Shown one piece after another: positions 1-24,981 of a stretch of DNA of 64,000 bases (the stretch's first letter is position 1; each line of letters starts with the position of its first letter). The stretch comes from a virus. The position numbers and the translations under genes were made by a program. Location: IMG/VR virus record IMGVR_UViG_3300023440_000001, positions 1-64,000 of that record; one strand, given 5' to 3'. The notes under the pieces are model-generated. The model saw only the letters and a list, made by a program, of their open reading frames with translations, was not told the origin of the DNA and did not search any database.

Positions 1-3000
1 AACAGGTATTTCATCTCCATACTGAAGTCGATTCCATATTGCCCGGCGGGATTCTTCACTCAGGCGACTGATGATATCCTTATATTCTGTTAACCTCAGT
101 ATCCGATACTTTCGAGCATCTCCCAGTGCCCGTCCAATAGGCGTCTGACGAAGTTCGCCTTCACGTATCTCCCGTAACCAGTCTACAGCTTCGAAGAGAT
201 CTTCGATATTATCGATCTGTTCCGGCAGGCTTCCCTTCTTCAGCAGCTTTATGGACTGCTGTATCCAGGCCATGGCTTCCGCAACTGGCATCTTCTGTGT
301 CTTCTGGGACACGTAGGATATACCCAGCCGGCTATCCAGATAGGAGAGCATCTCCAGTGCTTCCGCAGCGGAACCACCGGCCAGCTTCATGGAATTGAGA
401 ATACCTTCTTCAAACAATGTGTAGAAGTACGGCTTAAAACGCGTATGACCCAGCGGTACACCGTAGCGGCTTTCAATCAGTTCATTAATATCTTTATCCA
501 CATAGTCCAGTAGATCCTGCATAACCTGCAGAGAGTCAATGGCTCGAAAACCCATAACCGGCAACAGACGGTCACCAATCTTGTTCAGTTCGATATCAAA
601 CAGTGCCGGCTTGTCCTTCTGGCCCAGGTCCGTGCGAATCTTGCGATAGAACTGCAGCTCTTTCTCCAGGGTGCGCATCTCTTCACCGGAAGTGGTACTG
701 TTAACCCGCTTCTGCAGATCGATAATATGCTGATCCAGCTTCTTGCGATATTCATCAATGGTCTTATTGTAGAGCTCCAGCGCCCGCTGTCGATTCAATC
801 CCATTTGCCGAGCCTGTTTCTGAAAAGACTCCTCCACAAAGCTCCAGGTTATCCCGGTCTTATAAAGTGATTCCAGCAACCGGTCGGGACTGATCATTTC
901 ATATAGCTGCATGGATTGAATGGATGGCAGGCGCACTTCCAGATAGTACTGACCAGGTACTCCGGGCAGCTGACGGGCGACAATGTTCTGAGTACCAGAT
1001 TCGCCCAGAAAGGGACGCAGCGCTTCCCGTGCGGCACGCACCAGGTGGTGTGGATTGCGGTTATAAGTGGGATCATTGTTGAGCTTTAACAGTATACGGC
1101 CAATCTGTACGGAATAGAATGAACCGATTTCGTTTCGACTGCCACCGAACTTGGATCCGACAACCATTGCCACCTGACTGGCAGAAAAGTCCAGTGCCTG
1201 ATTCCGACCACCAAATGTCTGAAAGACCACGGACTTGGCATTCTTGGTAGTTCCGATAGTATACTTCGTGCCCGGTCCGCCTTCCGTAATCGTATCCAGC
1301 ATAATCTGCAGCTTACCGCTCTCCTTATCGATCCGTACATCAACCACTACCGCATCATGACTGCCATCGAACTTCACCGGGCGAGAACTGTGCAGCCGAC
1401 GTGCCAGCCAGATATCGTCTTCCTTATCGGCAAATAACATGTATCGGTGCAATACCGGATCGCTCATTCGCTCTTCCGGCTTCAGCCGATAGTAGCGATC
1501 CATGATTGCTGCCACTTCATGTCTGGAAATCGTGGCGTCGGCATTCACAAAAGCATTCCAGTCCGGTCTGCCGGACAGAAGGTTCAGTCGCCGTTCCAGT
1601 GCCTGGCGGATGGGTTTACCCAGATCACGGCCAATCTCCTGATATATCTGCTGGGGAGATAACATCTCCCATTTCTTGGGTAGGTCGATCTCTATAGTGG
1701 TAATGCTGCCGGCACCACGGAAGTAGCGCGTAATCTTCCGTGCCGCTTCATGCATAACTGCCTGACTCTCCCAGACCAGCTGATGCCCCTCCGGTGCGTA
1801 GAATACCGGCAGCTGCAGGCTAGTATGCAGGCCGCCTCGTTCCAGATCCCGCTGGCCGCGGGCGAAGATATTGCGGAAGGAGTCATAGAGCGCAGCCCCG
1901 TGCGTTGTGGAGAGTACGTTACCAGGCATGTATTGAAATGGGCCTTTGGTGATTTCACTCAGCAGTTCTTTGGTTGGCGGAGCAAACTGCCAGCCCATGA
2001 AGGCCTGATACTTCTGACGCATCAGGTTATTGAGCAGACCAAAGGGAATCAGATGATGCATCTGAAACAGAGAACCGATTAGCTTGGCAGCCTGCTGTTG
2101 GGAGCTGGAGAACAGGGAGATATTGAAGAGACTCTCTTCGTCATCCAGAGCCGTAAAGACGTTGGGCCGGTAGAGATCCATGGCTTCGAATGTTCGGAAC
2201 CAGGCGGTGTTTCCATGCTGCAGAACTTCTCGGGCAACTTCGTGCAGGTGCCAGTACTTGTCAAAGTTATAGGGGAGTTTGCGCAGGTTCTGCTGCTGAT
2301 ACATCAGGACAATTGTATTCAAGGCCACGTCCACACCACCGGCATGGGCGCCTTTCAGAATACTGTCCGTGGCGGTCAATTTCATGCGGCGCACTTTACG
2401 GAACAGTTCCAGAACTCTCTGATAGGGAACGTCATTCTCTTCGGCAATGCGCTTTAGTGCCGCTTCAGGTATCTCTTCGGCTTTGCTGACCTGCGCCTGT
2501 TGCAGAATGGCACCGAATGCCGTATCATCCAGGCCGGTATAAGCCTTGAACTGCGCTTCCAGACTGAGTCCCTGGTTTAACTCACCCAACCCATAGATTC
2601 CGGCAATGGCGAAAGAGTCGATGATACCATCCGTACCGTGCCAGGGATCCATCTTCAGGAAGCGCATCATCTGCGGTTTCAGGGCTTCATAGGTATCCCG
2701 TTCGAACTGATTACCATATTGTAGTTGCTCGAAGAGTGTTTTCAGCAGGACAATATCCGCCCCGGCAATATTATGACCGGCCCGCACCCGTAACGCATTA
2801 TACGGCTCCGCAAAGTCAATCAGATCGCGAATGGCTTCGGCAAAGTTCTTCCGGCGCAGTCGGTTTGGTCCGATCTCGCCGGATGGACCCCGCAGTTCGT
2901 TATTGATAAAGTGTTCGACGTCTTTAGGATCAACACCCTTATTAATATAGAACTGCTTGATATAGTCATACCATTCGGCCTTTCCAGGGTCGATCAGAAT

Positions 3001-4725
3001 ATCAATGCTACCCACTTCTTCCCAGGTAGCCGTGTTGATAATCTTGGCACTGATGTTATAGACTTTGGTGCGCGGATCACGGATGACTTTCTGCGGACCA
3101 ACACCCTTCTGAGCCAGATCAGGGTGCGTAAACTCCAGGTCGAATACCAGCATATGCTCGTTACCAGCACCCAGTTTGGAAAGCTCGTCCAGAGACGGCA
3201 CACCACGGATGAGTCGTCGGTAATCGCGATAACTTCCCTTACCGATGGCCAGATTCAGATCTTCAAAGATGACAGACTGCTGACGGATGATATCCCTGAT
3301 GGTTCCACTGATTGGAGAGGATTGACCGAAGACACGATCCAGTGTTGACTGGACCACGTTTAAAGCTCTTAATGGGACACCTGAATCCGCAATATCATTG
3401 ACGATCTTGTCCGCTACTGCCCGGTACATCTGAGCAACCCGAGAAGTTGGGTCCAGTATGTTATCCGATCCGAAGGGCGCATAACGGGGAGATACGGTGG
3501 GCAACGCATGAGCCCCGCGAGACATGAATGGACCAGTTTCGACCGGGATTCTTAACCGCAGCGGCTGATAATGAGTAGCATTACGGTTGACAACTTCGAT
3601 AATGACGCTTTTATGGGTGAACCCGCCGAAACGTTCATATTGTAGCTTCAGCTGAACATCCAGACCGTCGATGGCATCCATCGCCCGAGAGAACTTCTTA
3701 ACCTGATCCCGCTCTACTGCTTCCCGAAGCAAATCCATGAAGAAGCGGTCCTGACGGTTCTTCAACTCCTGAATCTTGTTGCGCAGTTCATTATAAAGTT
3801 GAGTTATCTCCCGTGCCTGTTGATCAACGTTTGAGCGGGACGTATTGGGTAGGCCCATCAATTTCTGCCAGGCGGACTGGGTGGGTTCCGGTAGATCGGC
3901 ATCCAGAAGAAACTCCCGAACAGTTCTTTCAATGGAGAGATAGCTTTCCTGTCCGGTTGGTGTAAGGTTGCTAATACGAATGGTTCCTGGTTGATGGGTT
4001 GCCAGTTCCGGATAGGGTTTCTGTTCCGGTATTCGACCATATACATCAATGACCAGTTCCCGGTAGAAACGCTGTTCCTGCTCGGCTCGTTTCAGGAGAC
4101 GAATGTAGGACTGACGCAGCTTGGTGTTGCCGGGATCTTTGGATAAGTTATCAAATAGCGTGGCATAGCGATCCAGTAGCTCGAAGGTGATCTGTGACTC
4201 GAAGGCATCTTCCAGACGGAGACCGTATTGCTCTTTATAGGCAAGAAACTTCAGGTATTTGATGATTCGTTCCCGGGCTGGCTGTTGACGCGCCACATCC
4301 ATGAGCGAATGAAACTGTCGCCGGCGGAACTTCTCTTCCAGCAGCAGGATGTTCTCGGCCGAAGTCTTCTCCATCTGCTCCTGAGCCAGTCTGGCAGCCA
4401 CGGCCTGCTCCCGACGGATAAACTCCAGTGTCTGATTGGTACGCTGCTGCCGGGCATTAGTAATGATATCACTACCCTTTCGGGTGAATGCACGCCGGGT
4501 ACTCTCACCGCTACCTTCTATGGTGATTGACTGGCTGGTGCGGATAATGTCTTCAACAATGGGCGTCTGCCCGAAGACCTTTTCGATGACACTGCCCAGT
4601 TTATCAACTCCCCTACCCGCCCACTTCAGAACTTCCGGGTGGAACTTTACTACACCCAGGGCAGTGGGAGTTAAAAGAAGAACGGATTGCAGCTGATCAC
4701 GGTGGGTCTTCTCTTTGGTAGCCAT
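1..4725 (-). CDS. Giant protein, 3' end outside window (>=1575 aa): DEDDh 3'-5' exonuclease domain plus RNA polymerase beta/Rpb2-like region; putative virion RNA polymerase
   Basis: ATG at 4725, 4 nt after the stop of the 2707-aa gene; hand translation (MATKEKTHRDQLQ...) has no stop down to base 1. Exonuclease motifs: VFDLEFT (D529, nt 3141), GHNIAGAD (G650-D657), AHAGGVD (H794/D799). RNAP-like motifs: LIPFGLLNNLMRQKYQAFMGWQ (2052-1987), DAVVVDVRI..GTKY..KNAKSVV (~1356-1228), SRNEIGSFYSVQIG (1140-1099). Confidence 0.85.
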   Translation of the reverse strand, partial: MATKEKTHRDQLQSVLLLTPTALGVVKFHPEVLKWAGRGVDKLGSVIEKVFGQTPIVEDIIRTSQSITIEGSGESTRRAFTRKGSDIITNARQQRTNQTLEFIRREQAVAARLAQEQMEKTSAENILLLEEKFRRRQFHSLMDVARQQPARERIIKYLKFLAYKEQYGLRLEDAFESQITFELLDRYATLFDNLSKDPGNTKLRQSYIRLLKRAEQEQRFYRELVIDVYGRIPEQKPYPELATHQPGTIRISNLTPTGQESYLSIERTVREFLLDADLPEPTQSAWQKLMGLPNTSRSNVDQQAREITQLYNELRNKIQELKNRQDRFFMDLLREAVERDQVKKFSRAMDAIDGLDVQLKLQYERFGGFTHKSVIIEVVNRNATHYQPLRLRIPVETGPFMSRGAHALPTVSPRYAPFGSDNILDPTSRVAQMYRAVADKIVNDIADSGVPLRALNVVQSTLDRVFGQSSPISGTIRDIIRQQSVIFEDLNLAIGKGSYRDYRRLIRGVPSLDELSKLGAGNEHMLVFDLEFTHPDLAQKGVGPQKVIRDPRTKVYNISAKIINTATWEEVGSIDILIDPGKAEWYDYIKQFYINKGVDPKDVEHFINNELRGPSGEIGPNRLRRKNFAEAIRDLIDFAEPYNALRVRAGHNIAGADIVLLKTLFEQLQYGNQFERDTYEALKPQMMRFLKMDPWHGTDGIIDSFAIAGIYGLGELNQGLSLEAQFKAYTGLDDTAFGAILQQAQVSKAEEIPEAALKRIAEENDVPYQRVLELFRKVRRMKLTATDSILKGAHAGGVDVALNTIVLMYQQQNLRKLPYNFDKYWHLHEVAREVLQHGNTAWFRTFEAMDLYRPNVFTALDDEESLFNISLFSSSQQQAAKLIGSLFQMHHLIPFGLLNNLMRQKYQAFMGWQFAPPTKELLSEITKGPFQYMPGNVLSTTHGAALYDSFRNIFARGQRDLERGGLHTSLQLPVFYAPEGHQLVWESQAVMHEAARKITRYFRGAGSITTIEIDLPKKWEMLSPQQIYQEIGRDLGKPIRQALERRLNLLSGRPDWNAFVNADATISRHEVAAIMDRYYRLKPEERMSDPVLHRYMLFADKEDDIWLARRLHSSRPVKFDGSHDAVVVDVRIDKESGKLQIMLDTITEGGPGTKYTIGTTKNAKSVVFQTFGGRNQALDFSASQVAMVVGSKFGGSRNEIGSFYSVQIGRILLKLNNDPTYNRNPHHLVRAAREALRPFLGESGTQNIVARQLPGVPGQYYLEVRLPSIQSMQLYEMISPDRLLESLYKTGITWSFVEESFQKQARQMGLNRQRALELYNKTIDEYRKKLDQHIIDLQKRVNSTTSGEEMRTLEKELQFYRKIRTDLGQKDKPALFDIELNKIGDRLLPVMGFRAIDSLQVMQDLLDYVDKDINELIESRYGVPLGHTRFKPYFYTLFEEGILNSMKLAGGSAAEALEMLSYLDSRLGISYVSQKTQKMPVAEAMAWIQQSIKLLKKGSLPEQIDNIEDLFEAVDWLREIREGELRQTPIGRALGDARKYRILRLTEYKDIISRLSEESRRAIWNRLQYGDEIPV

Positions 4726-4729
4726 CTAC

Positions 4730-7700
4730 CTATTCTCCAAACAATCGAATGGTGTTGGCTCTTGTCACATTGGTTCGCTCACGCTGAATATCGATATTCA
4801 GATGAATGCTATTAGACGAAGTGCTCGGTATACTTCGTATCTGTATGATTGCATTCTGAACACCAAAGGATGCCAGAGCCCCTTCTATTATTGCTTTAAT
4901 GGTCGCCGAATCCATGTCGGTCGCAACTGGTTCCGGAGAAGGTCCATTGATATCAATCGCCTGCAGATTGAAAGGTGAATTCCGTATCCGTTGCTCCTGA
5001 CTCATCCAGCCCAGACCGAAGTCGTGGGCATCAAATCCGGCCTGTTCGGCGGTTAACATCTGCACATCATCCACGTTGACAGCCGGATTCATCACCGGCT
5101 CCATCATGGATGGCAGGTAGTGGTCCTGGAAGTAGCGAGTCAAATCCAGTTCCTTTTTAGATATGTCACGACGCCGATTCCAGGCCATGTTTAATACCAT
5201 GCGCATCTGGGCATCGACCATCTGAAGAATGTTGTCCTGTTCATCGGGTGGAGTGGATAGAAATGGGAACAGGAACGGCCGATCCCAGTACGGCAGCGCA
5301 CGAATGGCCTGACCCATTCGCTGACCATAGGTATCCTGTGGATCCTGATTCTCATTCGATTGTCCACCAACCAGGGCCAGGTTATGATTTACTCCCTGCC
5401 AGGGAGAACCAAAACCGCGGTCCACCCCGAGCCCCTGGGCTTCAGCAGTATGCAACCGGCGCATCAGAGGTTGCATTGTATCCTCCGAACGATTCAACTT
5501 GATACGATTAAACTGAATTGCCATATCACCCCAGCGTACCGAATCGGTGAAACTACCGGCCAGTTTATCCAGTTCTTCATCCGGTAGCTTAGGAAAGAGT
5601 CGCTTGAAAGATGCACGTATATCTTCATAACTGCTGCGCAGAAGTCGAGCCCGATTATACTCGAACTCGTGAGCAATCATCTCTGATACAAACTCGTAAT
5701 CATTCTTCGTATTATATCCACGCTGTTTCAGGAAACCGGCAACCCGCTTTTCCAGTGCGGGAGTCATTCCGGTTTTGCGATAGAATCCGGGTGGATCTAA
5801 TTCCATCAAGGCAGTATGGAAGTACTGGTGGGAACGTTCATGACGAATCAACTGCTTTATACGAGAGAGTTTGGCATTTATATTGTTAGCGATCAGAATC
5901 ATTGGAGAGTCATCGAACTCTTCTATCCATTGACGCAGGGCCTGGCGCTCTTTGTCCAGCAGACGAATCTGACCCACTTCACCATTCAGTAGTTTAACGA
6001 TCCGGTCACGATAGGTGGCATTCAGGATCGGAATAAAAGTACCTATCGCTTCCGCATTGATTTCCCCCTTTGCAATGAAGTTCAGTGCTTTCCTGGATAC
6101 TCCAATAATACCGCGCCATGGCGATCCGAATCCCTGGTCCTTACCGATACCCTGTGCTGCCGGGTTATGCTGTTTGCGGGAACGCGATGCCATCCCGCGT
6201 TCCGACATTGCCGAGATCGTCCAACCAACGGTAGTGCGCTGCATCTCTTTCAGAAACTCCGGGTTCCTGGTAGCCAGATACATCATCTGAGCCTTGTAGA
6301 ATCGCACCCGGTCAAAATACTGGGACATCTCACTCATCTCTTCAAAGCGATCCGGAATGTACCGGGTTCCGGTTATGCCACGATAGATACCATGCATAAT
6401 TCCATAGGCAACACCCAGTGGCGCAGTTATGGAAGCCAGTACCGGACCGCCGAATAACCAGCCACCGATTCCATAAGAGATAGCCCCCTGGATGGGATCG
6501 TCTACCGATCGCAGCCCGCGGCTATAGGGTTCGATCCAGTGCTGATAGGGCTTTGCCCAGTTCTTAAACTCCCGACCATACAGAACAAATCGCTCGTATT
6601 GTTCTTCCGGCGAGTAGAGACCGAATAGCTTGGAATGCAGCGGACTGCGCAGGTGGGTAAACTTCTCCCAGATACTACCCATAATTCGCTCGGGCAGGGT
6701 GTACTCAGCGGCAGCTTTAATGTTCTCATTCAGAGAGAAGTTCTGATATTCCGTATCGGGCGATAGGATCTGAGAGAACTTAAACCGATACGGATACATT
6801 TCCCATTTCCACATCATGGCCCGACGTTGGCGCTGTAGCTTGTTCAGTTCTCTGATCTCGGCTTCCCCCAGTACACCGGCTTCTTTCTGCTGTTGCAGGA
6901 TCTGCCAGGTATCTCGAAACTCCTGACTGAAAGGAGCCGCATTGATGAGTACCTTTGCCCGATCCAGAAAGCTATAAGCCTGTGCCGGATTCCCATACCC
7001 CTGAGCCAGATATTGAGCCGCCAGCTGTCGAGCCGTTTCCAGACGGTTCATCGTCTCTTCGTAAAGACGGGGATCGTAACGTACCTGGAAAGTACGTATC
7101 TGAGTGGGGTCATCACGGTTTACGTATAGCAGGATACCCTTACTCTCGTTGAGAATGTTCAGGTAGACATTGAGCTGGGTAATATGTTTGGATTTGGGCC
7201 AGTGGAGTCTCTTAAATCCCTGTGCTCCGATAGTCTTGATTTCTATCGGCATGTACCCATGACGGGTGTTCTTACTCTGGATCAATATGTCCACATAGCC
7301 CTTAATATTATGATAGGGATCGTATATCAGTGTTTCCGCCTTGGTATTCTTGTTCAGCCGGGTTAGCATCTCCTGTATGATACGGTGAGTTCGGGTCCCG
7401 GCATCCAGGATATCTTCTTCCATCTCTGTCAGCTCATCCCGGATACCAATCATTCGCAGTGCCTGCTCATAGGCGGAGTAACCCAGCTGAGAGGGACCAG
7501 CGGGAAAGGTCAGGCGGACATTTCTGGCAGTTTCATACCCTTCTCCAGGCAGCAGCAGTTCACCGAAGGGAACCTTTGTATTATGAGTACAGGCACCCGG
7601 CACACAGAATGAATCATCTGTATCCACTTCATATCCGTACACTGGACCCCGATAGTGCGCTCTGCGTATGTATTCGATCTCCAGTCGCAACCATTCGTAC

Positions 7701-10700
7701 TCGGTAAACCTGGTGTTCCATTCATATTCATACCAGCTGGTCGGGTCTCCGGGCAGGCCATTTATGTCCATACCACAGAGCATTGCCAGTTCACGAGCTG
7801 CTCGACGGCTGTAGTAAATGCGTCTGTCTTCAATCCATCCCACATAACCATGTTGCACCAGAATGTTCCAGGCCTGATAGGTGATGGCTTCCGTGGGCAG
7901 CTCAAAGTACAAATACTCGTCTGTTTCATCCCGATGGGCAAAAACTGCCATGAATTGGATAAAGACTGTCAGATCCAATCCATAGAAGTTCAGTGGCAAT
8001 CCTTCTTCAATGATACGTACCAGCAGCTTCCGCAGTGGCTCCACCTTATAAATGCCGGAGCTGGGCTGGACATCAAATAGATCCGCCAGTAGTCGGCGCG
8101 CTTCTGGCGCGCATGGCCCGGATAAGGTGAAATGCTGACTGTTCAAACGATCTATGGAAGACAGTAGTAGAGCGATCAACCGCACTATCCTACCGGTAAG
8201 CGGTACGTCGTCATTGACCGTTCCCCGCACCTTTTTCAGATGTAGTACATCGGGCATACTGATCTTTAACAGTGGATAAGTAACCCGCATATCTTCTGTC
8301 AGATCCCGGGCCTTTACCCACTGTTTATCAATCCAGAAGGGATGTTCTTCGGTAACCTTAATCTCCCAGGGCAGACCCCTAATCTTGATGACGTATATCT
8401 CTTCATCTACTTCCCGGATGGCTACTGCCTTTACCGGATAGAAGCGTCCCTTGACGGTACGGATCAGGTCACCTGGCTTAACGGCATCGGCTCGTACCAG
8501 ACTACCGTTTACTTCTACCATTGAGTCAGGTGTCAGACAGTACGGATCGGAGTGTTTAAACTCATCTGGCATCCAGGAAGGCATTTCGTTCCGTATCAGA
8601 CCCACCTTTTCGTAATCCGTTCGGGGACGCGGAAAGAGTCGGCGGAAGCCCTCGTTGATTAGCAACATATCCCCCAGGTTCTCATCCCAGTAGAAGCGAC
8701 GGAAGCTATCCATTTCATCGGCTGAAGCAAACACCGGCTGCTCGCCGGCATAAGGCTCGTTACCGCCCCACATAGCAGCGGAGGTGATGAATCCCATTAA
8801 ACCAGCAGGTTCAATGAATCCCCGATAAACCTGTTCGGCTATCAGCTGACGTGTATCCCATGGAGTGGTAATTTCACCGTGATAGGGAGACATGGTGCCG
8901 GATACGAATTGACCAAACTGCTGACTACCTTCCAGGCCCAATGCCGGAGCCCCGGCATAGATCGGACCATAACCCCACAGCTTTCTCTGATTTTCACTCA
9001 CACCGTCAGCAGTCAATACAGCACGTGCCTCTTCCACATGCATGGGTTTGTTTGAAGCAAACGGATGCAGCAGGTTATACAGCCGACCCACTGTTACACC
9101 CAGCAATGGCCCGACAATGGGCACTTCTGAAAACGGCGTGCTGGGTATAACATAGGGTCGGTCCCGATAGTGTTTCTTTTCCAGATACTGTGGCGCAATA
9201 ATATCACCCAGGCTGAAGTCCAGGAAAGGCAGGTCTTTAAAGATGAACTCTTCTATCTTGGATCCATATAGTGATGGCGACGCTTTGTACTGGGACTTAA
9301 GCCGTACATACCAGTTCGGCACCCAGGCACGGATACGACCACCTTCTATGGGAGTTGTTCCGGTTGTCCAGCCGGCGCCCCTACGATAGGGTACCTCTTC
9401 TTCACCCGAGTATATCTTACGGAGCTCATCATAGGATTTGGTCAGATCAGCAACGAATGGAGCCACCGGCGGTAGTATAGCCAGTGCCGATAATGGACCA
9501 CCTGAGAGCTGAGCCTGGGTATATCGGTTAATGGCCGCCCCTGCCAGCATACCTGGCAGACCACCCATCATAAAGCCCACTGCTGCACCGGGTATAATAC
9601 TGGTGGATTTGGGCATCAGCCCTTCCATGTACTTGGCAAAGTTGGTAATGCCGGCAATATCATAAATGCGGGCTGCCAGTAGTCGTGCGTTAACCGCCTG
9701 ATCGGCAATGGCTACCGTAAGACCTTCATCCAGCGCCGTACCATCGAACATGGGATTGACATCAAAGAAAGTATCCAGGGCATTATAGGCAGTCATCACC
9801 CCACTGAAGAAGAGCGCCCGCTTGGCCATCAGACCGGCAACACCACCCCGCCATTTACCATCTACCTTTTTAGGCAGGAAATGGGAATAACGCGCCCGGT
9901 TGAAGCCCAACCCCATGAAGTCCAGCGCCTGACCAAAGGTATCGTAAACATAGTCCATGGCCAGACTGAACAGCTCACCTTTATCCTTATGCAGTAGCAG
10001 GTATGGATCCGTATCGTATGTCTTTTGAACAATACCATAGATCTGTTCCCGATAGTTATCCGGTGGGCTATATTTAGCCGTCCAGCTTACCTCTTTGGAG
10101 AACGCTTCTAATACTCCGGCGTCGTCAGCCTGCTTCAGTACACCCAGTAACTGGGAAAGCTTCTCATAGTTTTGTTCTACCTCAGCGATCTGACGAATGG
10201 TATCCTGGCTGGTAATATTACGAAAGCGTGCCTGAGTAAAAAGCATCTGAACGAAAGCCTTATCCCGTCTGGTAGCTGTAGAGCCAACCAGATTACCAAC
10301 GGCGTTGATCAGACGGGTTGCCAGTGCACGATCATTTGCCACATCATAGGTGAGTTCCTGAGGAACATTGCTGGCGATGGACGTCAGTCGATAGTTAACC
10401 AGGAAACGCCGGAAACGGTCAGCCAGTGGTTCACCGATCGGATTGTAGAGCTCGTTCCGCAGACCACCCAGTTCCTTGGACTGCAATTCATTAATAGCTC
10501 GGGCAATAGAGCGGAACTCGGGCGTGGCTTCGGCAATCTTAAGACTACCTTTATCGAGTGTTTTGAAGAGCAGTTTTACGGCCTCATAGGCATCTTCGGC
10601 ATTGGCGAGTATGTCAGCATGCTTGCCCTGGATGGCTTCAATGAATTTGATATCCGGATCGCTTTTGGTCAGCTGAAGCGGTTTGAATAACTCCTTGAAC

Positions 10701-12853
10701 ACTTCCGGACGCAAAATAACCTTGGCTTCTTTGTTGATGGTATACAGTGCTGCATCTACATGCTCGAGGTAGGTACTCAGATCGTTAATTAGACCATTGC
10801 GCTGATAGAAATCGAAGTCGTAGCCATACTTGCGAGCAAAACTGCGTTGCCCGAACAGTCGTCGCATATTGTACGGGCCAATTCGTGTCTTCAGATGTTC
10901 CCAGGCACTGGGAGACGCCGTGTCAGCACCAAACAGATCAAGCTGCTCATAAAGATAACGACGTATCTTCCCAATGATACCCTTTGATCTTTTGATCTCC
11001 GGAGGCGTACCAATATCAAGTAACTGGTCGTATTTCTTGGCAAGGATGGAGTAGAGCTTGCTCTGTCCTTCCAGTGGTATGGCTGTTAGACGATGATCGG
11101 TAATGGGAATATAACGGCCAGCATTGCGATCGAGAACAAACAACTGATGGCCTTTGTGTTTGGGACTGTAGACCAGAACACCCACACCCGGCACATCAGC
11201 CCCCTTATACTCAGATCCCATTCCCTTACTGCCACGGAATCGAAAGAGCGGTCCTTTAAAACGGTATTCTTCATTGGTGATTGCAGAGGTGGGAATGATC
11301 TTATGTCCACTCAGAATGGTTACTTTGGGCTGCTGGTGTTCTAGTAGCTGGAATTGAAACAGGCCAAGTGTATCAAAACGTCTGCCAAAGGAAAGCATTC
11401 GCCGCGTCCAGTAAATAGCCCGTCCCAGAACTTCTCGTGGAGATATACCACTCAGATTGACCAGTTTCTTACGGATTGGATCATAGTATATATTCTCACC
11501 ATACAGAAAGTTCAGATGATCCGTCTTGTTACGACCCAGTATTAGCTGAGTCGCTGATCGGCGTATGTGACGTGCTTCCCTCCCGGCAAACCGACGGTTG
11601 TACTCCCTGGCGGTAGCAAGTAGCTGGTCATATATCTGATCGTATAAGTCTTTATTGACTTCCTTAACGTGTCGTAATCGTGCCGGAACCAGCCCTAACA
11701 ATCTGGGCAGAAAGCCCTGCTGCTTTGGTTTTACGGCAACCCGATAGAGATTCTCTGTCAGTTCACTGCCCAGTTTCTGATGTTGTTGGTCTATACTGCT
11801 CAGTACTTGAAATAAAGGAGCTGACTCGTAACCTTCGGTACCCTGGATGAACTGGCGATGAACGGTACTAATGGGCAGGTTACGGCGAATATCCCTGCGT
11901 GCTGCCCGATAACGATCCCGGAAGAGACGGTAGCGAGCAACCAGGGTTTCAACCGGATTCTTGTTCAGTCGGTATTTGGACAGACGTTGATTATCACGGA
12001 TCAGAAACACACCGTACCCGGACTCCCCGCCGGTCTGACGCCAGGCGTATTTATAGGCACTGCCGACACGATGGAGAAATGCTTCCCCACGATCCATGTA
12101 CATAGCAGCCCTTTGCAGTGCCGTCTGGATGAATTCGCCGGTGGGTGAAGCCTTCAGAGCACCTCTGGTTTTCAACTGAAACAGTTCCCGGGCAGCTGGT
12201 GCAAAGTGTATGGCCAGTCGGCCGGGAATATCAAAGGCCATATAAGAAGGCAGCCACTTGGCAAAACGGATGGCGTGTCCGGGCAGGTTCCACCAGGCCG
12301 GTCGTTCATCTTTCTGCCGTTCGCGTGGATCACGATTGAAGATACCAATTGCCTGTTCACCGATATAGAATAGAGGTGCTTCATAGGCCAAAGACTTACC
12401 ATATTCGGCAAAAGCACTCTTCAACAGGTTAACTCTGTCGGGTTGATCCATGCGCCGGAAATCACGGATCATTGCCAGAGTACGGAACCGGCGATCTTTA
12501 TAGTGGGACATGAACTCCTGCGCCGGTCGGGATGCTTCCTCCCAGCGACGGGCAAGCCGGCTGATGGATCCAACATTGGTTTCCTGAAGTAACTGCCAGA
12601 GACCTTTTTCCGGTGCTTTAACAGATGCCTTGCGTAACGTTTGCAGGGCAACGGACTTGATTTCAGAAGACTCGCGCAGTGTCTTCAGGGCAAAAGACTC
12701 CAACCGGCGTAGACCGGCAGTGGCCAGACCATGATAAGCACCCCAGGCAATAAACGATAGCGCTACGCTACCGACTAGCTTCTTCAGTGTATCATGACCC
12801 TGTCCTTCAACACCACCGTGATACTGCTGGATCAGTTCGTCCCTATCTGCCAT
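4730..12853 (-). CDS. Giant polyvalent virion protein (2707 aa) in the tape-measure position, with hydrophobic segments, an intein, a PD-(D/E)XK (Cas4/RecB-like) nuclease and an HExxH domain
   Basis: Follows the chaperone-like genes; Gly-rich hydrophobic stretches; GTRTH..GYVD..PIEIKT..QLNVY nuclease motifs (~7400-7150); HERSH at 5842-5828. Confidence 0.75.
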   Translation of the reverse strand: MADRDELIQQYHGGVEGQGHDTLKKLVGSVALSFIAWGAYHGLATAGLRRLESFALKTLRESSEIKSVALQTLRKASVKAPEKGLWQLLQETNVGSISRLARRWEEASRPAQEFMSHYKDRRFRTLAMIRDFRRMDQPDRVNLLKSAFAEYGKSLAYEAPLFYIGEQAIGIFNRDPRERQKDERPAWWNLPGHAIRFAKWLPSYMAFDIPGRLAIHFAPAARELFQLKTRGALKASPTGEFIQTALQRAAMYMDRGEAFLHRVGSAYKYAWRQTGGESGYGVFLIRDNQRLSKYRLNKNPVETLVARYRLFRDRYRAARRDIRRNLPISTVHRQFIQGTEGYESAPLFQVLSSIDQQHQKLGSELTENLYRVAVKPKQQGFLPRLLGLVPARLRHVKEVNKDLYDQIYDQLLATAREYNRRFAGREARHIRRSATQLILGRNKTDHLNFLYGENIYYDPIRKKLVNLSGISPREVLGRAIYWTRRMLSFGRRFDTLGLFQFQLLEHQQPKVTILSGHKIIPTSAITNEEYRFKGPLFRFRGSKGMGSEYKGADVPGVGVLVYSPKHKGHQLFVLDRNAGRYIPITDHRLTAIPLEGQSKLYSILAKKYDQLLDIGTPPEIKRSKGIIGKIRRYLYEQLDLFGADTASPSAWEHLKTRIGPYNMRRLFGQRSFARKYGYDFDFYQRNGLINDLSTYLEHVDAALYTINKEAKVILRPEVFKELFKPLQLTKSDPDIKFIEAIQGKHADILANAEDAYEAVKLLFKTLDKGSLKIAEATPEFRSIARAINELQSKELGGLRNELYNPIGEPLADRFRRFLVNYRLTSIASNVPQELTYDVANDRALATRLINAVGNLVGSTATRRDKAFVQMLFTQARFRNITSQDTIRQIAEVEQNYEKLSQLLGVLKQADDAGVLEAFSKEVSWTAKYSPPDNYREQIYGIVQKTYDTDPYLLLHKDKGELFSLAMDYVYDTFGQALDFMGLGFNRARYSHFLPKKVDGKWRGGVAGLMAKRALFFSGVMTAYNALDTFFDVNPMFDGTALDEGLTVAIADQAVNARLLAARIYDIAGITNFAKYMEGLMPKSTSIIPGAAVGFMMGGLPGMLAGAAINRYTQAQLSGGPLSALAILPPVAPFVADLTKSYDELRKIYSGEEEVPYRRGAGWTTGTTPIEGGRIRAWVPNWYVRLKSQYKASPSLYGSKIEEFIFKDLPFLDFSLGDIIAPQYLEKKHYRDRPYVIPSTPFSEVPIVGPLLGVTVGRLYNLLHPFASNKPMHVEEARAVLTADGVSENQRKLWGYGPIYAGAPALGLEGSQQFGQFVSGTMSPYHGEITTPWDTRQLIAEQVYRGFIEPAGLMGFITSAAMWGGNEPYAGEQPVFASADEMDSFRRFYWDENLGDMLLINEGFRRLFPRPRTDYEKVGLIRNEMPSWMPDEFKHSDPYCLTPDSMVEVNGSLVRADAVKPGDLIRTVKGRFYPVKAVAIREVDEEIYVIKIRGLPWEIKVTEEHPFWIDKQWVKARDLTEDMRVTYPLLKISMPDVLHLKKVRGTVNDDVPLTGRIVRLIALLLSSIDRLNSQHFTLSGPCAPEARRLLADLFDVQPSSGIYKVEPLRKLLVRIIEEGLPLNFYGLDLTVFIQFMAVFAHRDETDEYLYFELPTEAITYQAWNILVQHGYVGWIEDRRIYYSRRAARELAMLCGMDINGLPGDPTSWYEYEWNTRFTEYEWLRLEIEYIRRAHYRGPVYGYEVDTDDSFCVPGACTHNTKVPFGELLLPGEGYETARNVRLTFPAGPSQLGYSAYEQALRMIGIRDELTEMEEDILDAGTRTHRIIQEMLTRLNKNTKAETLIYDPYHNIKGYVDILIQSKNTRHGYMPIEIKTIGAQGFKRLHWPKSKHITQLNVYLNILNESKGILLYVNRDDPTQIRTFQVRYDPRLYEETMNRLETARQLAAQYLAQGYGNPAQAYSFLDRAKVLINAAPFSQEFRDTWQILQQQKEAGVLGEAEIRELNKLQRQRRAMMWKWEMYPYRFKFSQILSPDTEYQNFSLNENIKAAAEYTLPERIMGSIWEKFTHLRSPLHSKLFGLYSPEEQYERFVLYGREFKNWAKPYQHWIEPYSRGLRSVDDPIQGAISYGIGGWLFGGPVLASITAPLGVAYGIMHGIYRGITGTRYIPDRFEEMSEMSQYFDRVRFYKAQMMYLATRNPEFLKEMQRTTVGWTISAMSERGMASRSRKQHNPAAQGIGKDQGFGSPWRGIIGVSRKALNFIAKGEINAEAIGTFIPILNATYRDRIVKLLNGEVGQIRLLDKERQALRQWIEEFDDSPMILIANNINAKLSRIKQLIRHERSHQYFHTALMELDPPGFYRKTGMTPALEKRVAGFLKQRGYNTKNDYEFVSEMIAHEFEYNRARLLRSSYEDIRASFKRLFPKLPDEELDKLAGSFTDSVRWGDMAIQFNRIKLNRSEDTMQPLMRRLHTAEAQGLGVDRGFGSPWQGVNHNLALVGGQSNENQDPQDTYGQRMGQAIRALPYWDRPFLFPFLSTPPDEQDNILQMVDAQMRMVLNMAWNRRRDISKKELDLTRYFQDHYLPSMMEPVMNPAVNVDDVQMLTAEQAGFDAHDFGLGWMSQEQRIRNSPFNLQAIDINGPSPEPVATDMDSATIKAIIEGALASFGVQNAIIQIRSIPSTSSNSIHLNIDIQRERTNVTRANTIRLFGE
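7580..8539 (-). mobile_element. Intein (320 aa) in the giant virion protein, with an apparently degenerate endonuclease region
   Basis: DPY|CLTPDSMVEV start, block B VTEEHPF, block F VYGYEV, end CTHN|T (+1 Thr). Confidence 0.9.
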
Positions 12854-16178: not shown

Positions 16179-16871
16179 TTACTTGGTGGTTAGTTTATCA
16201 CTCGGGTTTTCATGATAGGGCCAGTACCGCTCTGTCTCCCGACCTTTCGAGATAAAGTCTCGTATGAGCTTACTGCCCAGTGTAAGTACCATCTTATCAT
16301 TGGGTACTTCCATATAGAAGTCTCCCGTCTCGGGATCCGGTCGCAACTCCACGGGCTGCATCAGCGATATATCCCGTGCCAGGTACTGCATGGTGGTTTC
16401 CGGATAGGCTTCATTAACACCCAGTACACCGCCTTCGTCAACAATCTCCACACCGATCAGTTTCATGACTGACATCCGACCGGCTTCATTCATGAACAGT
16501 AGTATCAAGTCGAACGGAGGTAACTGGTCGGTTAAAATAGAGTATGCCGGCAATGCTGCATCCTGGCTGTCATACTGGAAATGCTTGAACAACTCAGCCA
16601 GTGCTGCCGCCTGGAAGTTCACGAATACCAGACTACCAGCAATAGTTCGTGACCCGCGTGTATACCCGGCCGCATAGGTTCTTCCCAGCCGTCGCACGGG
16701 AAACTTCTCCCGGTGAATGGAATAACTTAAGGTATGTGCATTTCCAATATGAATATACTCCGGACCATAGATGGCAATAACCATGATATCCGATCCGGAA
16801 TAAACACTCTGTTCGGCAAATGTCTGACCTTTTTGGAACTGCCGTGAACCGACATTCAGTGCATTGATCAT
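16179..16871 (-). CDS. Tail tube-like protein
   Basis: YSGSDI..LSYSIHREKFPVRRLG..GSRTIAGSL..DQLPPFD; clear paralog of 16933-17568. Confidence 0.65.
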   Translation of the reverse strand: MINALNVGSRQFQKGQTFAEQSVYSGSDIMVIAIYGPEYIHIGNAHTLSYSIHREKFPVRRLGRTYAAGYTRGSRTIAGSLVFVNFQAAALAELFKHFQYDSQDAALPAYSILTDQLPPFDLILLFMNEAGRMSVMKLIGVEIVDEGGVLGVNEAYPETTMQYLARDISLMQPVELRPDPETGDFYMEVPNDKMVLTLGSKLIRDFISKGRETERYWPYHENPSDKLTTK

Positions 16872-16932
16872 ACCGGTGCCTCCGTTAGAAACCGGGCAGG
16901 GGTATTACTGTACCCCTACCCTGCTGTATGGC

Positions 16933-17568
16933 TTAAGTAGTAATGTTGCCGAGACCCTGAAACAGACCATTGTCTTCCAGGTTGATTCCGCGACCTCCCA
17001 GCAGATCAGACCGTCCTTCTTCAGTGTCAGTGAGAGGTTTCCACCATTCGACACCCTGGGCGACAAAGGTGAATTGCGCTTCGGCCACGTTGTCGTCAAC
17101 GGACATACCGGTACCTTCACTGACCAGGTGTACGCCGTAAATACGCATGACCATGGCATTGCCGAATTCGTTCTTGGCTACCAGAGTAATGGTGAAGGGC
17201 GGCAGCTGATCGCTGTAGTTGGGATGGCGTAGCTCGGCATTGATCTCTTCGATCAGGTTGCTATCCTGGGTTACGTCTTCTTTCTTGGCCGCAAAGAGTG
17301 CCTGACGTTTGATATCAAAGAGCGCATCCCGATCCAGGATGGTCATGATTAAACTACCGGCGACACCTCGTTTACCACGGGAGTAGGATAGTACATCCAC
17401 CCGGCCCATGACGAAAACGGGTCGCACTTCACGGTTTACGGATAAGGAAATACCCTGCAGGTTTCCTATCTCAACGTTCTCAAAGTAGGCCTTGATGTCG
17501 CACCCGGAGAACGTGGTCATGGTGCGGGCCAATTCGTTAGACTGAACATTAAATGCTTGTTGAGGCAT
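16933..17568 (-). CDS. Major tail tube protein
   Basis: Directly after the sheath gene; FSGCDI..SVNREVRPV..RGKRGVAGSL..DQLPPFT; start moved to the ATG at 17568 (AGGAG at 17581-17577). Confidence 0.7.
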   Translation of the reverse strand: MPQQAFNVQSNELARTMTTFSGCDIKAYFENVEIGNLQGISLSVNREVRPVFVMGRVDVLSYSRGKRGVAGSLIMTILDRDALFDIKRQALFAAKKEDVTQDSNLIEEINAELRHPNYSDQLPPFTITLVAKNEFGNAMVMRIYGVHLVSEGTGMSVDDNVAEAQFTFVAQGVEWWKPLTDTEEGRSDLLGGRGINLEDNGLFQGLGNITT

Positions 17569-17660
17569 AACGAACACTCCTATAAAAGTGTATTACCAGA
17601 CCCTCATGGGATTCCAGTATAGATATGTCAAAGTAGTCCGTGCGTGTCGTCTCGATATTA

Positions 17661-23694: not shown

Positions 23695-24981
23695 TTAGGA
23701 TAAGGTAACCTGATTGACGTTTTCGAATACGTAGTTGCGATCGATGGTGATGTTGCGAGCCACAGCCACGCCTTTTCCTTGCTCGAATAACGCCATACCC
23801 CAGCGTTCCTTGATCTTCATGGCGCGGATGTCGCGTTCCGGATCGTTCCACTGGTCGAGACTGACGCCTTCCTTGGTAATCAGGATACCGCAGCGATCGG
23901 AGTCGGCCATGATGATGTCGGATTTGGGTTTGGGCCCGTCAGCATTGAAAGGAACGTGCGGGCTGACGATGACTTTCATCGGCGTTGGTAAGTAGCGCGG
24001 TTCGATGTAGAAGGTGGCTCCCAACGGATTCAGAGTGGTCACAAACGGGTTGTTACCGGCAACCTTGTTGGGATCGTCGAAAGCGATACCGGTAGCCGTG
24101 GTTCGCAGACCCATTCCCTGATGTCCGGTACCGAAACCAGGAGAGTAAGAGCCATTCGGTAAGCGATTGGTAGCCAGGGTCGCGCCCTTCAACACGATTT
24201 CCCGGGTCTCCGGATCAGTCATGAACATCTTCCAGGCCAAGGGGTTCATGAGCAACGTATCAGGAGTGAACCCACGCAGGAATAACCAGGCATACATCTC
24301 GAAGATGTCATCCACGGTCATGGTGTTGTTCTTGGCACCGTCAATGCCGCGTCCGTTGGTAGCACCCAGCTGGGAGCTGGCAGGATCATCATTGTTGAAG
24401 ATGTCATAACCGAAGTCGTTGATCAACTTGATACCGTACTGCTCTTTGTGTCGGGCCAATGCGCGGCCGGCCATCCGTAACCACAAACCGAACACGTCGA
24501 ACAGGTTGTCGGTGATGACTTCTTCAGTAACCCGCATTTTCAAACCGTGTTTCTCGATCCCGACCTGGATCATATCGCCTTCACCGAAGTTGAATTCGGT
24601 TTCCGGATATTCGGCGCCTTCCGGTACGGTGGCTGCATGGAATGCTCCAATAGAGCCGATTTCCACCGAACGACCCGGACCTTCGTAGCGCACTTCCTGG
24701 AACAGGTTGGGCACTACCACCAGGTTGGGCTCTAACGCTTCTCGAATCACCCGGGATACGGAAGTTTCGATGAAGCGGGTTAAGTCTTTGGTCGTAACAG
24801 TGTCTTTTAACTCATCGACTTCTTTGAACGCCTTGGGCAGATCAAAGATGTCGTTAAACTCCAACTTCACGATGTGTTTGTCTTCAGTGGGAAGACCGAC
24901 CACACCGTTGTTGGTGAACGCATCATAGAGGATCTGTTCCAGATGATTGAGCGTCGAGTTGTTTTGACCGATTACCTTCAT
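23695..24981 (-). CDS. Major capsid protein (HK97 fold)
   Basis: VPEGAEYPE..KHGLKMRVTEEVITD..AGRALARHKE..PDTLLMNP..KERWG motifs; head-module position. Confidence 0.88.
   Translation of the reverse strand: MKVIGQNNSTLNHLEQILYDAFTNNGVVGLPTEDKHIVKLEFNDIFDLPKAFKEVDELKDTVTTKDLTRFIETSVSRVIREALEPNLVVVPNLFQEVRYEGPGRSVEIGSIGAFHAATVPEGAEYPETEFNFGEGDMIQVGIEKHGLKMRVTEEVITDNLFDVFGLWLRMAGRALARHKEQYGIKLINDFGYDIFNNDDPASSQLGATNGRGIDGAKNNTMTVDDIFEMYAWLFLRGFTPDTLLMNPLAWKMFMTDPETREIVLKGATLATNRLPNGSYSPGFGTGHQGMGLRTTATGIAFDDPNKVAGNNPFVTTLNPLGATFYIEPRYLPTPMKVIVSPHVPFNADGPKPKSDIIMADSDRCGILITKEGVSLDQWNDPERDIRAMKIKERWGMALFEQGKGVAVARNITIDRNYVFENVNQVTLS

What the first reader, a model, noticed from the sequence alone, without database searches (positions are those of the whole stretch)
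1..2060. Hidden giant ORF carries RNA polymerase beta/Rpb2-like motifs: candidate virion-packaged RNAP
Seen: an ORF absent from the track runs from the ATG at 4725 off the left edge. It shows four motifs in the order of the second-largest RNAP subunit, compared here with sequences recalled from memory. (1) LIPFGLLNNLMRQKYQAFMGWQ vs yeast Rpb2 [22 protein letters not shown], ungapped. (2) WESQAVMHEAA at the GYNQEDSMIMN position, with the Asp replaced. (3) DAVVVDVRI..KLQIML..GTKYTIGTTKNAKSVV vs the beta GDK..KG lysine pair. (4) SRNEIGSFYSVQIG vs E. coli RpoB SRMNIGQILETHLG. Established: crAss-like and phiKZ-like phages package two-barrel RNAPs. Inference: this tail-module gene encodes a highly diverged ejected RNAP, or a derivative, whose beta'-like DxDGD half would lie beyond the window.
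Basis: partly seen in the sequence, partly recalled or inferred. Interest (0 to 1): 0.92.

Follow-up and report, generated by a model that had tools for sequence, protein, structure and literature searches.

The report
Truncated giant phage exonuclease-polymerase tail-module gene
The window's left end holds the first 1,575 residues of a roughly 2,500-residue gene among the tail genes of an uncultured large phage; its full-length relatives carry the catalytic signature of cellular-type RNA polymerases, so it is probably an enzyme the phage brings into the host, but no fold could be obtained to prove it.

Summary
The ORF is real: 1..4725 (-), 1,575 aa, open at the contig end. All four peptide strings sit where stated. 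No Pfam, PHROG, PDB-sequence or isolate-phage match exists.

A full HMMER search of 1.84 billion representatives found 8 relatives of 1,949-2,793 aa, so about 950 residues are missing here. The block's best match in E. coli beta', P23-45 gp96 and gp64 is the catalytic loop of each.

The beta-like reading of the window part is plausible but unproven. hhalign finds nothing. Both AlphaFold models are poor, with pLDDT 53 and 55. However, the motifs coincide with family-invariant residues: [DE]979, K1154, K1164, R1197 and R1210. No invariant basic residue lies elsewhere upstream of the Asp triad.

The scan has noted similar exonuclease-polymerase tail giants on other DNA; those notes are unchecked. 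Verdict: probable new, very diverged single-chain two-barrel polymerase fused to a DEDDh-like exonuclease. Confidence 0.55.

The parts
1..4725 (-). N-terminal 1575 residues (about 62%) of a giant ORF of about 2530 aa, cut by the end of the contig
   Evidence: Relatives are 1949-2793 aa, and the two closest (34% identity) are 2529 and 2532 aa.
4645..4725 (-). Conserved N-terminal 27 residues (M1, K4, K6, S14, P20, G24, K27 invariant); role unknown, perhaps a targeting or processing signal
   Evidence: Invariant in 9 of 9 members that have an N-terminus.
2317..3153 (-). DEDDh-like 3'-5' exonuclease motif set: ExoI D529/E531, ExoII D657, ExoIII H794/D799
   Evidence: All five residues are invariant in 10 of 10 members. 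The best hhalign match to E. coli DnaQ falls on its ExoI motif (P 0.027), and the best match to RNase T falls on its ExoIII motif (P 0.074). There is no Pfam or PDB profile hit.
1987..2052 (-).
   Evidence: Rank 8 of 1326 near the expected RpoB site, so likeness to beta is not shown.
1741..1809 (-).
   Evidence: Block rank 48 of 1330 against RpoB.
1225..1356 (-).
   Evidence: The GPGTKYTI block ranks 1 of 1335 at the E. coli GDK motif. In the earlier one-sequence scan its best hit in P23-45 gp96 was 544 YAGLKGTV, z 4.0.
1081..1158 (-).
   Evidence: Rank 1 of 1324 at E. coli 1103 VPSRMNIGQ. K1164 to R1197 is 33 residues, as from E. coli K1073 to R1106.
1..1080 (-). Conserved continuation (residues 1216-1575; D1377, E1418, P1424, G1468 invariant), part of the long stretch that in relatives leads to the DxDGD region
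   Evidence: Only weak coiled-coil-type Pfam hints: Fib_alpha in P0001 at E 0.87, and CC_BshC in the relative P0004 at E 0.0071.
4730..12853 (-). Preceding giant ORF (2707 aa) in the same operon, with a Cas4-like nuclease domain; context, not part of the polymerase
   Evidence: phrog_1706 at 6.7e-20 on residues 1787-1944. 50% identical to the first giant of locus L002.

Best explanation
ORF 1..4725 (-) is the front 62% of a giant (about 2,530 aa) multidomain protein encoded in the contractile-tail module of an uncultured phage with an estimated genome of about 190 kb.

From N to C the family has:
- a conserved 27-residue N-terminus;
- a DEDDh-type 3'-5' exonuclease-like domain (residues about 525-800);
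- a region (about 890-1215) that most likely forms the beta-like barrel B of a single-chain two-barrel nucleotide polymerase, supplying an acidic residue ([DE]979 or 986/7), two lysines (K1154, K1164) and an arginine (R1197);
- a long stretch of about 700-800 residues, whose start is in the window;
- beyond the window, the beta'-like barrel A with [RK]-x-P and (A)DxDGD, followed by a conserved C-terminal domain.

Inferred mechanism: the protein is made late with the tail proteins and carried in the particle. It is delivered with the DNA and transcribes the first phage genes independently of host RNA polymerase, as shown for crAss-like gp66 and Thermus phage P23-45 gp96. The fused exonuclease would trim nucleic-acid 3' ends.

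Shown: the ORF, the family, the conserved residues, the DxDGD motif in relatives, and the tail-module context. Inferred: the barrel folds, polymerase activity, RNA as the product, packaging and timing.
For: 1. Family. 8 relatives were found among 1.84e9 representatives, 6 of them at E<=1e-10, plus locus L005. Locus L002 encodes P0003 itself.

2. Barrel A signature.
- D2029, D2031 and D2033 (P0003 numbering) are invariant in 8 of 8 members that reach there. [KR]1979 is conserved in 8 of 8, and P two residues later in 7 of 8.
- The best hhalign match of this region falls on the DFDGD/DYDGD loop in 3 of 3 known two-barrel RNAPs tested: E. coli RpoC 445-469, gp64 275-336 and gp96 766-799.
- The 29-column profile scores 21.9 (RpoC), 23.4 (gp96) and 13.1 (gp64). 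Among 201,147 background positions from 982 unrelated ORFs the maximum is 21.0 and the next is 12.8.

3. Barrel B by elimination. Between the exonuclease residues and barrel A, the only invariant or charge-invariant charged columns are R903, [KR]905, [DE]979, K1154, [DE]1199, R1210, D1377, [DE]1407 and E1418. All lie in the window. None lies between P0003 1510 and 1978.

4. Pattern. [DE]979 ... K1154-x9-K1164 ... R1197 follows the order D ... K-x7-K ... R given for Rpb2 D837, K979, K987 and R1020 in PMC2919709 (passages read). The spacing K1164 to R1197 is 33, equal to E. coli K1073 to R1106. Two blocks rank first at the GDK and SRMN sites of RpoB.

5. Context.
- The terminase, portal, capsid and sheath genes and two tube-position paralogues lie on the same strand, followed by the giants.
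- The next giant in relatives matches a tail/'endolysin' PHROG.
- The giants are syntenic in L002 and L005.
- There is tight coupling to the upstream gene.

6. Precedent. P23-45 gp96 was itself found only by its DFDGD motif, with no other detectable similarity to RNAPs (bioRxiv 10.1101/2022.12.01.518664, passages and sections 8-10 read).

7. The phage has a separate family A DNA polymerase, so the giant is not needed for replication.
Against: - No fold evidence. The AlphaFold2 model of window residues 866-1278 has mean pLDDT 53.0 and pTM 0.44. The model of the DxDGD region of P0003 has pLDDT 54.9, with the DxDGD stretch under 50 and drawn as helix.
- Structure searches with these models gave no RNAP above noise: best Z 5.5 to a tail sheath piece, with RNAP second-largest subunits only at Z 3.8-3.9.
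- No Pfam, PHROG or PDB-sequence profile hit to any RNAP.
- hhalign P-values for barrel A (0.0016-0.039) are in the range of an unrelated control pair: the exonuclease region against RpoB gave P 0.014. Only the location of the matches counts.
- The RxP block is not above background by raw score; 28-187 background positions score as high.
- hhalign finds nothing for the window's beta-like region.
- The reverse scan maps the RpoB GDK motif best to the KFGGSR block rather than to K1154, so the residue assignment is ambiguous.
- The two closest relatives have K, not R, in the R-x-P motif.
- The candidate barrel-B acidic residue is Glu in 6 of 10 members, where the known families have Asp.
- The distance between the putative barrels (about 800 residues) is far longer than in known single-chain enzymes.
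- The catalytic half of this very gene is not in the record.
Confidence: 0.55

Rival explanations
1. The family is a two-barrel polymerase, but the window's motifs are not its barrel B. The beta-like barrel would lie elsewhere, for example in the beta-rich stretch around P0003 1730-1800 just upstream of barrel A. The window would then hold only the exonuclease and accessory domains, and the reader's RpoB look-alikes would be chance.
For: hhalign gives no support for the window region against any RNAP. The reverse motif scan is ambiguous. In known single-chain enzymes barrel B lies about 200-250 residues before R-x-P (QDE-1 residue numbers in PMC2919709; gp96 and gp64 sequences). Here the gap would be about 800.
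Against: No invariant basic or acidic residue exists between P0003 1510 and 1978; only G1732 and G1918 are invariant there. Every two-barrel enzyme is said to keep one Asp and two basic residues in barrel B (PMC2919709). The window region holds the only candidates, and they come in the right order.
Confidence: 0.15
2. It is a two-barrel nucleotide polymerase with a job other than early transcription. Examples are an RNA-dependent or primer-making polymerase, or a proofreading DNA polymerase in the manner of archaeal PolD, which pairs a two-barrel core with an exonuclease.
For: The conserved DEDDh-like exonuclease fused in cis is typical of proofreading DNA polymerases, not of RNAPs. The two-barrel core is also used by PolD and by RNA-dependent enzymes (abstracts in the listing; PMC2919709).
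Against: The phage encodes a family A DNA polymerase (E 1.7e-67). The gene sits among tail genes, not replication genes. The motif is ADFDGD in 2 members, as in beta'. The known tail- or virion-encoded two-barrel enzymes are DNA-dependent RNAPs (10.1101/2022.12.01.518664).
Confidence: 0.1
3. It is not a polymerase. The giant would be a structural or ejected tail-lumen protein (tape-measure-like or inner-tail) carrying a nuclease. The D-x-D-G-D would be a metal-binding loop of another kind, and the likeness to RNAP motifs coincidental.
For: No profile or fold evidence for DPBB domains. hhalign P-values are at the level of an unrelated control. An unrelated tail giant of Moorella phage MTATph1 scores 21.0 with the same 29-column profile without any Asp triad. 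Acidic D-x-D loops are common in calcium-binding proteins (recalled). The large proteins in the same position of MTATph1 lack DxDGD.
Against: The three Asp are invariant in 8 of 8, with a basic residue and a Pro about 50 residues upstream, and a hydrophobic strand plus DP just before. That is the same layout as in RpoC, gp64 and gp96. The best match in all 3 of 3 RNAPs is the catalytic loop. The invariant Lys, Arg and acidic residues of the middle region are unexplained by a purely structural role.
Confidence: 0.2

Closest known systems
Thermus phage P23-45 gp96, the tape-measure-fused virion two-barrel RNAP (Chaban et al., bioRxiv 10.1101/2022.12.01.518664, also held as PMC10770324)
   Same: A giant protein encoded after the tail-tube-position genes. 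A single chain with barrel B before barrel A. A DFDGD-type loop preceded by R-x-P. Not recognisable by sequence apart from that loop. The family's DxDGD block scores highest at gp96 residue 764 (23.4, above all 201,147 background positions). The phage also has a second candidate polymerase gene elsewhere.
   Different: No detectable homology outside the loop (hhalign P 0.0067-0.039). The host phage has a contractile tail, not a long non-contractile one. Neither a metallopeptidase nor a transmembrane tape-measure part was found in this protein. This family has a DEDDh-like exonuclease in front and about 800 residues between the putative barrels, where gp96 has a short connector (section 8 of the paper).
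crAss-like phage phi14:2 gp66 and Neurospora QDE-1 (single-chain two-barrel polymerases of the RdRP/YonO clade)
   Same: Single-polypeptide two-barrel architecture. gp66 is a large virion protein delivered to the host (as stated in the introduction of the Chaban preprint; otherwise recalled). The order of the invariant residues is D ... R/K ... K, then R-x-P ... DxDGD (PMC2919709).
   Different: I did not fetch or compare their sequences. No exonuclease fusion is described for them in the texts I read. Spacing differs strongly: QDE-1 D709, R738, K743, R962, D1007, against [DE]979, K1154, K1164, about 1979 and about 2029 here.
Cellular RNAP beta/beta' (E. coli RpoB/RpoC) and the split beta/beta' RNAPs of phiKZ-like jumbo phages
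   Same: ADFDGD in two members is identical to the beta' loop, with a similar preceding strand. Two window blocks rank first at the GDK and SRMN motifs of RpoB, and the K-to-R spacing is 33 in both.
   Different: Pfam RNA_pol_Rpb2_6 does not match. There is no hhalign similarity to RpoB. It is one chain rather than subunits. No flap (SBHM), clamp or bridge-helix motifs were recognised: my recalled bridge-helix likeness failed the scan.
DnaQ/RNase T-type DEDDh exonucleases
   Same: The D-E-D-H-D residues come in the canonical order and are invariant in 10 of 10 members. The best local matches to E. coli DnaQ and RNase T fall on ExoI and ExoIII.
   Different: No Pfam or PDB profile hit. The domain is about 275 residues, with long insertions between the motifs. 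It is fused inside a giant tail-module protein.

Membership tests
Two-barrel nucleotide polymerases (eight invariant residues, Ruprich-Robert & Thuriaux 2010, PMC2919709) | Barrel A Asp triad D-x-D-x-D (Rpb1 D479/481/483) | tested here: met
   Met in the relatives only, because the window's copy ends before it. The three Asp are invariant in 8 of 8 members that reach the region, and DxDGD is present in 7 of 8.
Two-barrel nucleotide polymerases (eight invariant residues) | Barrel A R-x-P upstream of the triad (Rpb1 R446, P448) | tested here: inconclusive
   A basic residue is present in 8 of 8 (R in 6, K in the 2 closest relatives) and Pro in 7 of 8, about 50 residues before the triad. The block is the top hit in gp64 (277) and gp96 (727) but is not above background by raw score.
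Two-barrel nucleotide polymerases (eight invariant residues) | Barrel B acidic residue (Rpb2 D837) | tested here: inconclusive
   Candidates in the window are [DE]979 (acidic in 10 of 10: Glu in 6, Asp in 4), an acidic residue at 986/987 in 10 of 10, and D1133 in 8 of 10. Which one, if any, faces the metal cannot be told without a structure.
Two-barrel nucleotide polymerases (eight invariant residues) | Barrel B pair of basic residues 5-8 apart (Rpb2 K979, K987) | tested here: inconclusive
   K1154 is present in 10 of 10, K1164 in 9 of 10 and K1161 in 7 of 10, spaced 7-10 apart. The block ranks 1 of 1335 at the E. coli GDK site, but the reverse scan prefers another block.
Two-barrel nucleotide polymerases | Two double-psi beta-barrel folds facing each other | tested here: inconclusive
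   AlphaFold2 models had pLDDT 53.0 and 54.9. Fold searches on them were uninformative.
DNA-dependent two-barrel RNAPs (extra residues in PMC2919709) | Funnel arginine (Rpb2 R1020, the R of the SRM motif) | tested here: inconclusive
   R1197 is present in 9 of 10. It lies 33 residues after K1164, as E. coli R1106 lies after K1073. The block ranks 1 of 1324 at that site. The rank is biased by the way the motif was chosen.
Cellular RNAP beta / Rpb2 (Pfam PF00562 RNA_pol_Rpb2_6) | Match to the family profile | tested here: not met
   There is no hit in P0001 at E<=1, none in the whole record at E<=10, while 14 of 14 control genomes matched. hhalign against a 6-sequence RpoB profile gave best P 0.084 at an unrelated site.
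DEDDh (DnaQ/RNase T) 3'-5' exonucleases | ExoI D-x-E, ExoII D, ExoIII H-x4-D in order | tested here: met
   D529, E531, D657, H794 and D799 are invariant in 10 of 10.
DEDDh (DnaQ/RNase T) 3'-5' exonucleases | Match to a family profile or solved relative | tested here: inconclusive
   No Pfam hit, even at E<=10, in the 4 members scanned. PDB profile hits are only at E 0.21-0.6 to a chain named exodeoxyribonuclease III, over the ExoII region. hhalign to DnaQ gave P 0.027 and to RNase T P 0.074, on the right motifs but at the noise level.
P23-45 gp96-type tape-measure-fused virion RNAP | Fusion of the polymerase to a tape measure (transmembrane and metallopeptidase parts) and presence in virions | not tested
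   The C-terminal third of relatives has no family match. No transmembrane analysis or proteomics was done. The next gene, not this one, carries the tail/'endolysin' PHROG match.

The most novel reading that the evidence does not exclude
The exonuclease and the two-barrel core act together. That would make this the first proofreading (or 3'-end-processing) two-barrel polymerase delivered through a contractile tail. It would be one of a block of three injected giants, and the neighbour carries a Cas4-like nuclease, a nucleotidyltransferase-like part and an intein-like insert. Together they would form a nucleic-acid toolkit that starts infection and defends or remodels the incoming genome. A bolder form of the same reading is that the product is DNA rather than RNA, which would give a bacterial-virus counterpart of archaeal PolD.
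Probability: 0.12. Interest if true: 0.85.

Novelty: new variant of a known kind. Interest (0 to 1): 0.6.

Why it matters
Phages that carry their own RNA polymerase into the cell escape dependence on, and inhibitors of, host transcription. Only a few such systems are characterised: N4, phiKZ-like phages, crAss-like gp66 and P23-45 gp96. A further family would widen the known range of the cellular-type polymerase core. Here the core would sit in a contractile-tail module, fused to an exonuclease, and be so diverged that only the Asp loop is recognisable. It would raise the question of how a 280-kDa enzyme passes a tail tube, and would give a natural test case for what an exonuclease does next to an RNAP.

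I found no description of such a fusion in the held library. Searches returned, for 'two-barrel' + 'phage' + 'DPBB' since 2021, 4 papers, of which 3 were listed, none on this. The supplementary survey and family alignments of the P23-45 paper, which I could not open, may already include it. Notes of this scan report the same architecture on other DNA, so it is probably a widespread but unpublished class rather than a one-off.

Tried and rejected
Searches for the protein that found nothing:
- tblastn of P0001 and of P0003 against 50,697 phage records, and of P0003 against 72,556 plasmids.
- phmmer or hmmsearch of P0001, A1, A4 and A5 against PDB sequences. The weak rows were unrelated, apart from an exonuclease III chain at E 0.21-0.6.

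Searches for more relatives:
- The search for related loci with P0001 alone confirmed none of 4 pattern matches. With A2 it gave 1 locus out of 140 pattern matches.
- The search for homologous proteins with P0002 returned only itself among 8000 scored candidates. With A3 and lengths 'longer' it searched 833-2375 aa, which excludes most of the family, and found nothing. That was a wasted search.
- My degenerate DNA pattern for G-x-L-N-N-x-x-R-x-K-[YF]-Q gave 3 viral hits, of which 2 were real (L003 encodes P0009; L005 is new). It gave 23 metagenome and 20 genome hits, of which 0 were real by tblastn.

Structure attempts:
- Both AlphaFold jobs gave poor models.
- VIA-align over the wide PDB set on both models, and Foldseek against PDB on the first, gave no clear match.
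- The ESM Atlas feature search on the DxDGD region gave PhyH-named clusters at score 0.91 with few shared features. I judged this uninformative.
- Complex prediction (barrel-A region of P0003 with window residues 965-1278) gave no answer, score 0.00. It counts neither for nor against.

Leads that failed:
- My recalled likeness of a YLTQKL block to the beta' bridge helix failed the scan.
- A recalled likeness of GHTRF to the beta GGQRFGEME motif also failed: rank 55 of 1324.
- hhalign of the middle of the family against gp64(1-280), gp96(327-745) and RpoB(501-1342) gave P 0.3-0.72.
- The large tail-module proteins of Moorella phage MTATph1, the closest isolate by terminase (31% identity), have no DxDGD and no similarity to the family.
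- The PolD-like replicase idea was weakened by the family A polymerase in the record. No Pol III alpha or family B polymerase was found.

Full report
What is there.

The window is the first 64 kb of a 136,294-bp linear virus record, estimated 72% complete. On the minus strand an ORF starts at the ATG at 4725 and runs without a stop to base 1, giving 1575 codons. The record ends there. The ORF does not resume at the other end, and a profile of the missing part finds nothing elsewhere in the record. A GGAG lies 12 nt before the ATG, which is 4 nt from the stop of a 2707-aa ORF.

Context.

The same strand carries, in order: large terminase (32015-34288), portal (29142-30758), major capsid protein (23695-24981), tail sheath (17731-20439), two small paralogues in the tube position, the 2707-aa giant, and then this ORF. 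The closest isolates by terminase are jumbo contractile-tailed phages: Moorella MTATph1, Acinetobacter ME3 and Bacillus 0305phi8-36, at 24-31% identity.

In two related viral contigs the homologue of this ORF is followed by a further giant (at least 2321 and at least 2280 aa). The end of that giant matches a tail/'endolysin' PHROG. This is therefore a tail-module block of giant genes.

The family.

The protein has no Pfam, PHROG, PDB-sequence or isolate-phage match. A full HMMER search with residues 861-1575 against 1.84 billion representatives found 8 proteins of 1949-2793 aa. Two of them are 34% identical and 2529 and 2532 aa long. A ninth relative came from a DNA-pattern scan (L005). The gene in the window therefore lacks about 950 C-terminal residues.

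The predicted catalytic half.

In all 8 members that reach it there is an invariant D-x-D-x-D: DxDGD in 7 and DFDRD in one, with ADFDGD in two. It is preceded by a hydrophobic stretch ending in DP. About 50 residues upstream lies a basic residue followed two positions later by Pro. That is the layout of the beta' barrel of two-barrel RNA polymerases as defined in PMC2919709 (passages read).

The best local hhalign match of this region falls on the catalytic loop of each of the three known enzymes I could fetch: E. coli RpoC 445-469, P23-45 gp64 275-336 and gp96 766-799. The P-values (0.0016-0.039) are not significant by themselves, because an unrelated control pair gave 0.014. A 29-column profile of the block is more telling. 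It scores 21.9, 23.4 and 13.1 at those loops. Over 201,147 positions of unrelated ORFs the maximum is 21.0, a tail giant of Moorella phage without any Asp triad, and the next is 12.8.

The window's part.

Five residues in the order and spacing of a DEDDh exonuclease (D529, E531, D657, H794, D799) are invariant in 10 of 10 members. Profile methods do not recognise the domain. The best matches to E. coli DnaQ and RNase T fall on ExoI and ExoIII, but at noise-level P.

For the beta-like region (residues 866-1278) the formal tests fail. There is no Pfam RNA_pol_Rpb2_6 hit, even at E<=10 over the whole record. hhalign gives nothing against RpoB, a six-sequence RpoB profile, gp96 or gp64.

Two more rank 8th and 10th, and two rank nowhere near.

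- Between the exonuclease and the Asp triad, the only invariantly charged columns of the whole family are R903, [KR]905, [DE]979, K1154, [DE]1199, R1210, D1377, [DE]1407 and E1418. All are inside the window, and none lies in the 470 residues before barrel A.

If the family is an active two-barrel enzyme, its barrel-B acidic residue and basic pair must therefore be among these. [DE]979 ... K1154 ... K1164 (9 of 10) ... R1197 (9 of 10) comes in the order D ... K ... K ... R of Rpb2. The K-to-R spacing is the same 33 residues as in E. coli.

Structure.

Searches with them are uninformative. The complex prediction gave no answer. The family is too small for better models: my pattern scans of the metagenome and genome collections added no member.

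Comparison with what is known.

The nearest precedent is Thermus phage P23-45 gp96. It is a giant tape-measure protein whose N-terminal part is a virion two-barrel RNAP. It was found by its DFDGD motif alone and confirmed by structure and activity (10.1101/2022.12.01.518664: abstract, sections 8-10 and passages read). crAss-like gp66 is the other virion single-chain case named there.

The present family shares several features with these: the single chain, the order of the barrels, the tail-module position and the near-absence of sequence similarity. It also differs. The phage has a contractile tail, a DEDDh-like exonuclease is fused in front, and the two putative barrels are very far apart.

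A jumbo-phage survey mentions only a YonO-like enzyme for the 0305phi8-36 group (PMC7824862, passages). I found no paper describing an exonuclease-fused two-barrel enzyme.

Earlier notes of this scan describe tail-module giants with an exonuclease and a two-barrel core on other DNA: 24 notes in at least 20 genomes hold the search words, and the 8 shown have follow-ups. None shares sequence words with this window. I treat these notes as leads, not evidence.

Verdict.

- Its statistical likeness to beta subunits is unproven.

I put 0.75 on the family being a two-barrel polymerase. I put 0.55 on the full statement that the window holds the exonuclease plus barrel B of such an enzyme. Delivery with the virion and early transcription are further inferences from context and precedent.

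The main rivals are:
- a non-polymerase tail protein with a coincidental acidic loop (0.2);
- a polymerase whose barrel B lies elsewhere (0.15);
- a two-barrel polymerase with another job (0.1).

Noticed in passing
window 4730-12853 (-): The preceding 2707-aa giant has a Cas4-like PD-(D/E)xK nuclease (phrog_1706 at 6.7e-20, residues 1787-1944) and weak Hint/intein hits (E 0.05-0.23). Its 3320-aa homologue in L002 (50% identical) hits Intein_splicing at 1.6e-6 (below Pfam's cut-off). It also has weak nucleotidyltransferase-like (phrog_1614 at 5.9e-4) and Ppx/GppA (0.003) matches.
   Followed up: partly
L002 1-24791; L005 3-13950; L052 24648-44557: There are three giant ORFs in a row in relatives: at least 3320, 2532 and at least 2321 aa in L002. 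The third matches phrog_20474 ('endolysin', 4.8e-46) and a tail-protein PHROG. Moorella phage MTATph1 has a 2225-aa 'endolysin' gene in the same position, but its two other large genes lack DxDGD.
   Followed up: partly
It has no D-x-D-G-D. The best match of the giant family's catalytic block in it is an EYDGD at about residue 180 of the stop-to-stop frame (score 12.2, within the background range; hhalign P 0.21).
   Followed up: partly
window 16179-17577 (-): Two adjacent paralogous small proteins (230 and 214 aa) lie after the sheath gene and match phrog_9206, which is labelled 'major head protein'. By position they are more likely tail tube or tube-associated proteins. The same labels occur in Moorella phage MTATph1.
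   Followed up: no
G000:C1:93943-96771 (+), outside the window: A family A DNA polymerase (Pfam DNA_pol_A at 1.7e-67, in a 943-aa frame). No Pol III alpha or family B polymerase was found in the record.
   Followed up: no
relatives P0002-P0009, C-terminal 120 residues (beyond the window): A strongly conserved C-terminal motif, PN...G.GGE..D.P, then DK ... LP.RP, is invariant in 8 of 8 members. Its role is unknown, and the block attracted several chance top hits in motif scans.
   Followed up: no
protein P0006 (1949 aa): An outlier of the family. It lacks K1164 and R1197 and ends before the DxDGD region. It is either a fragment or a decayed copy.
   Followed up: no
protein P0002: The closest full-length relative is named by a source as a hypothetical protein of Acinetobacter sp. 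and lies on a 195,140-bp contig. That hints at a complete relative genome and a possible host group.
   Followed up: no
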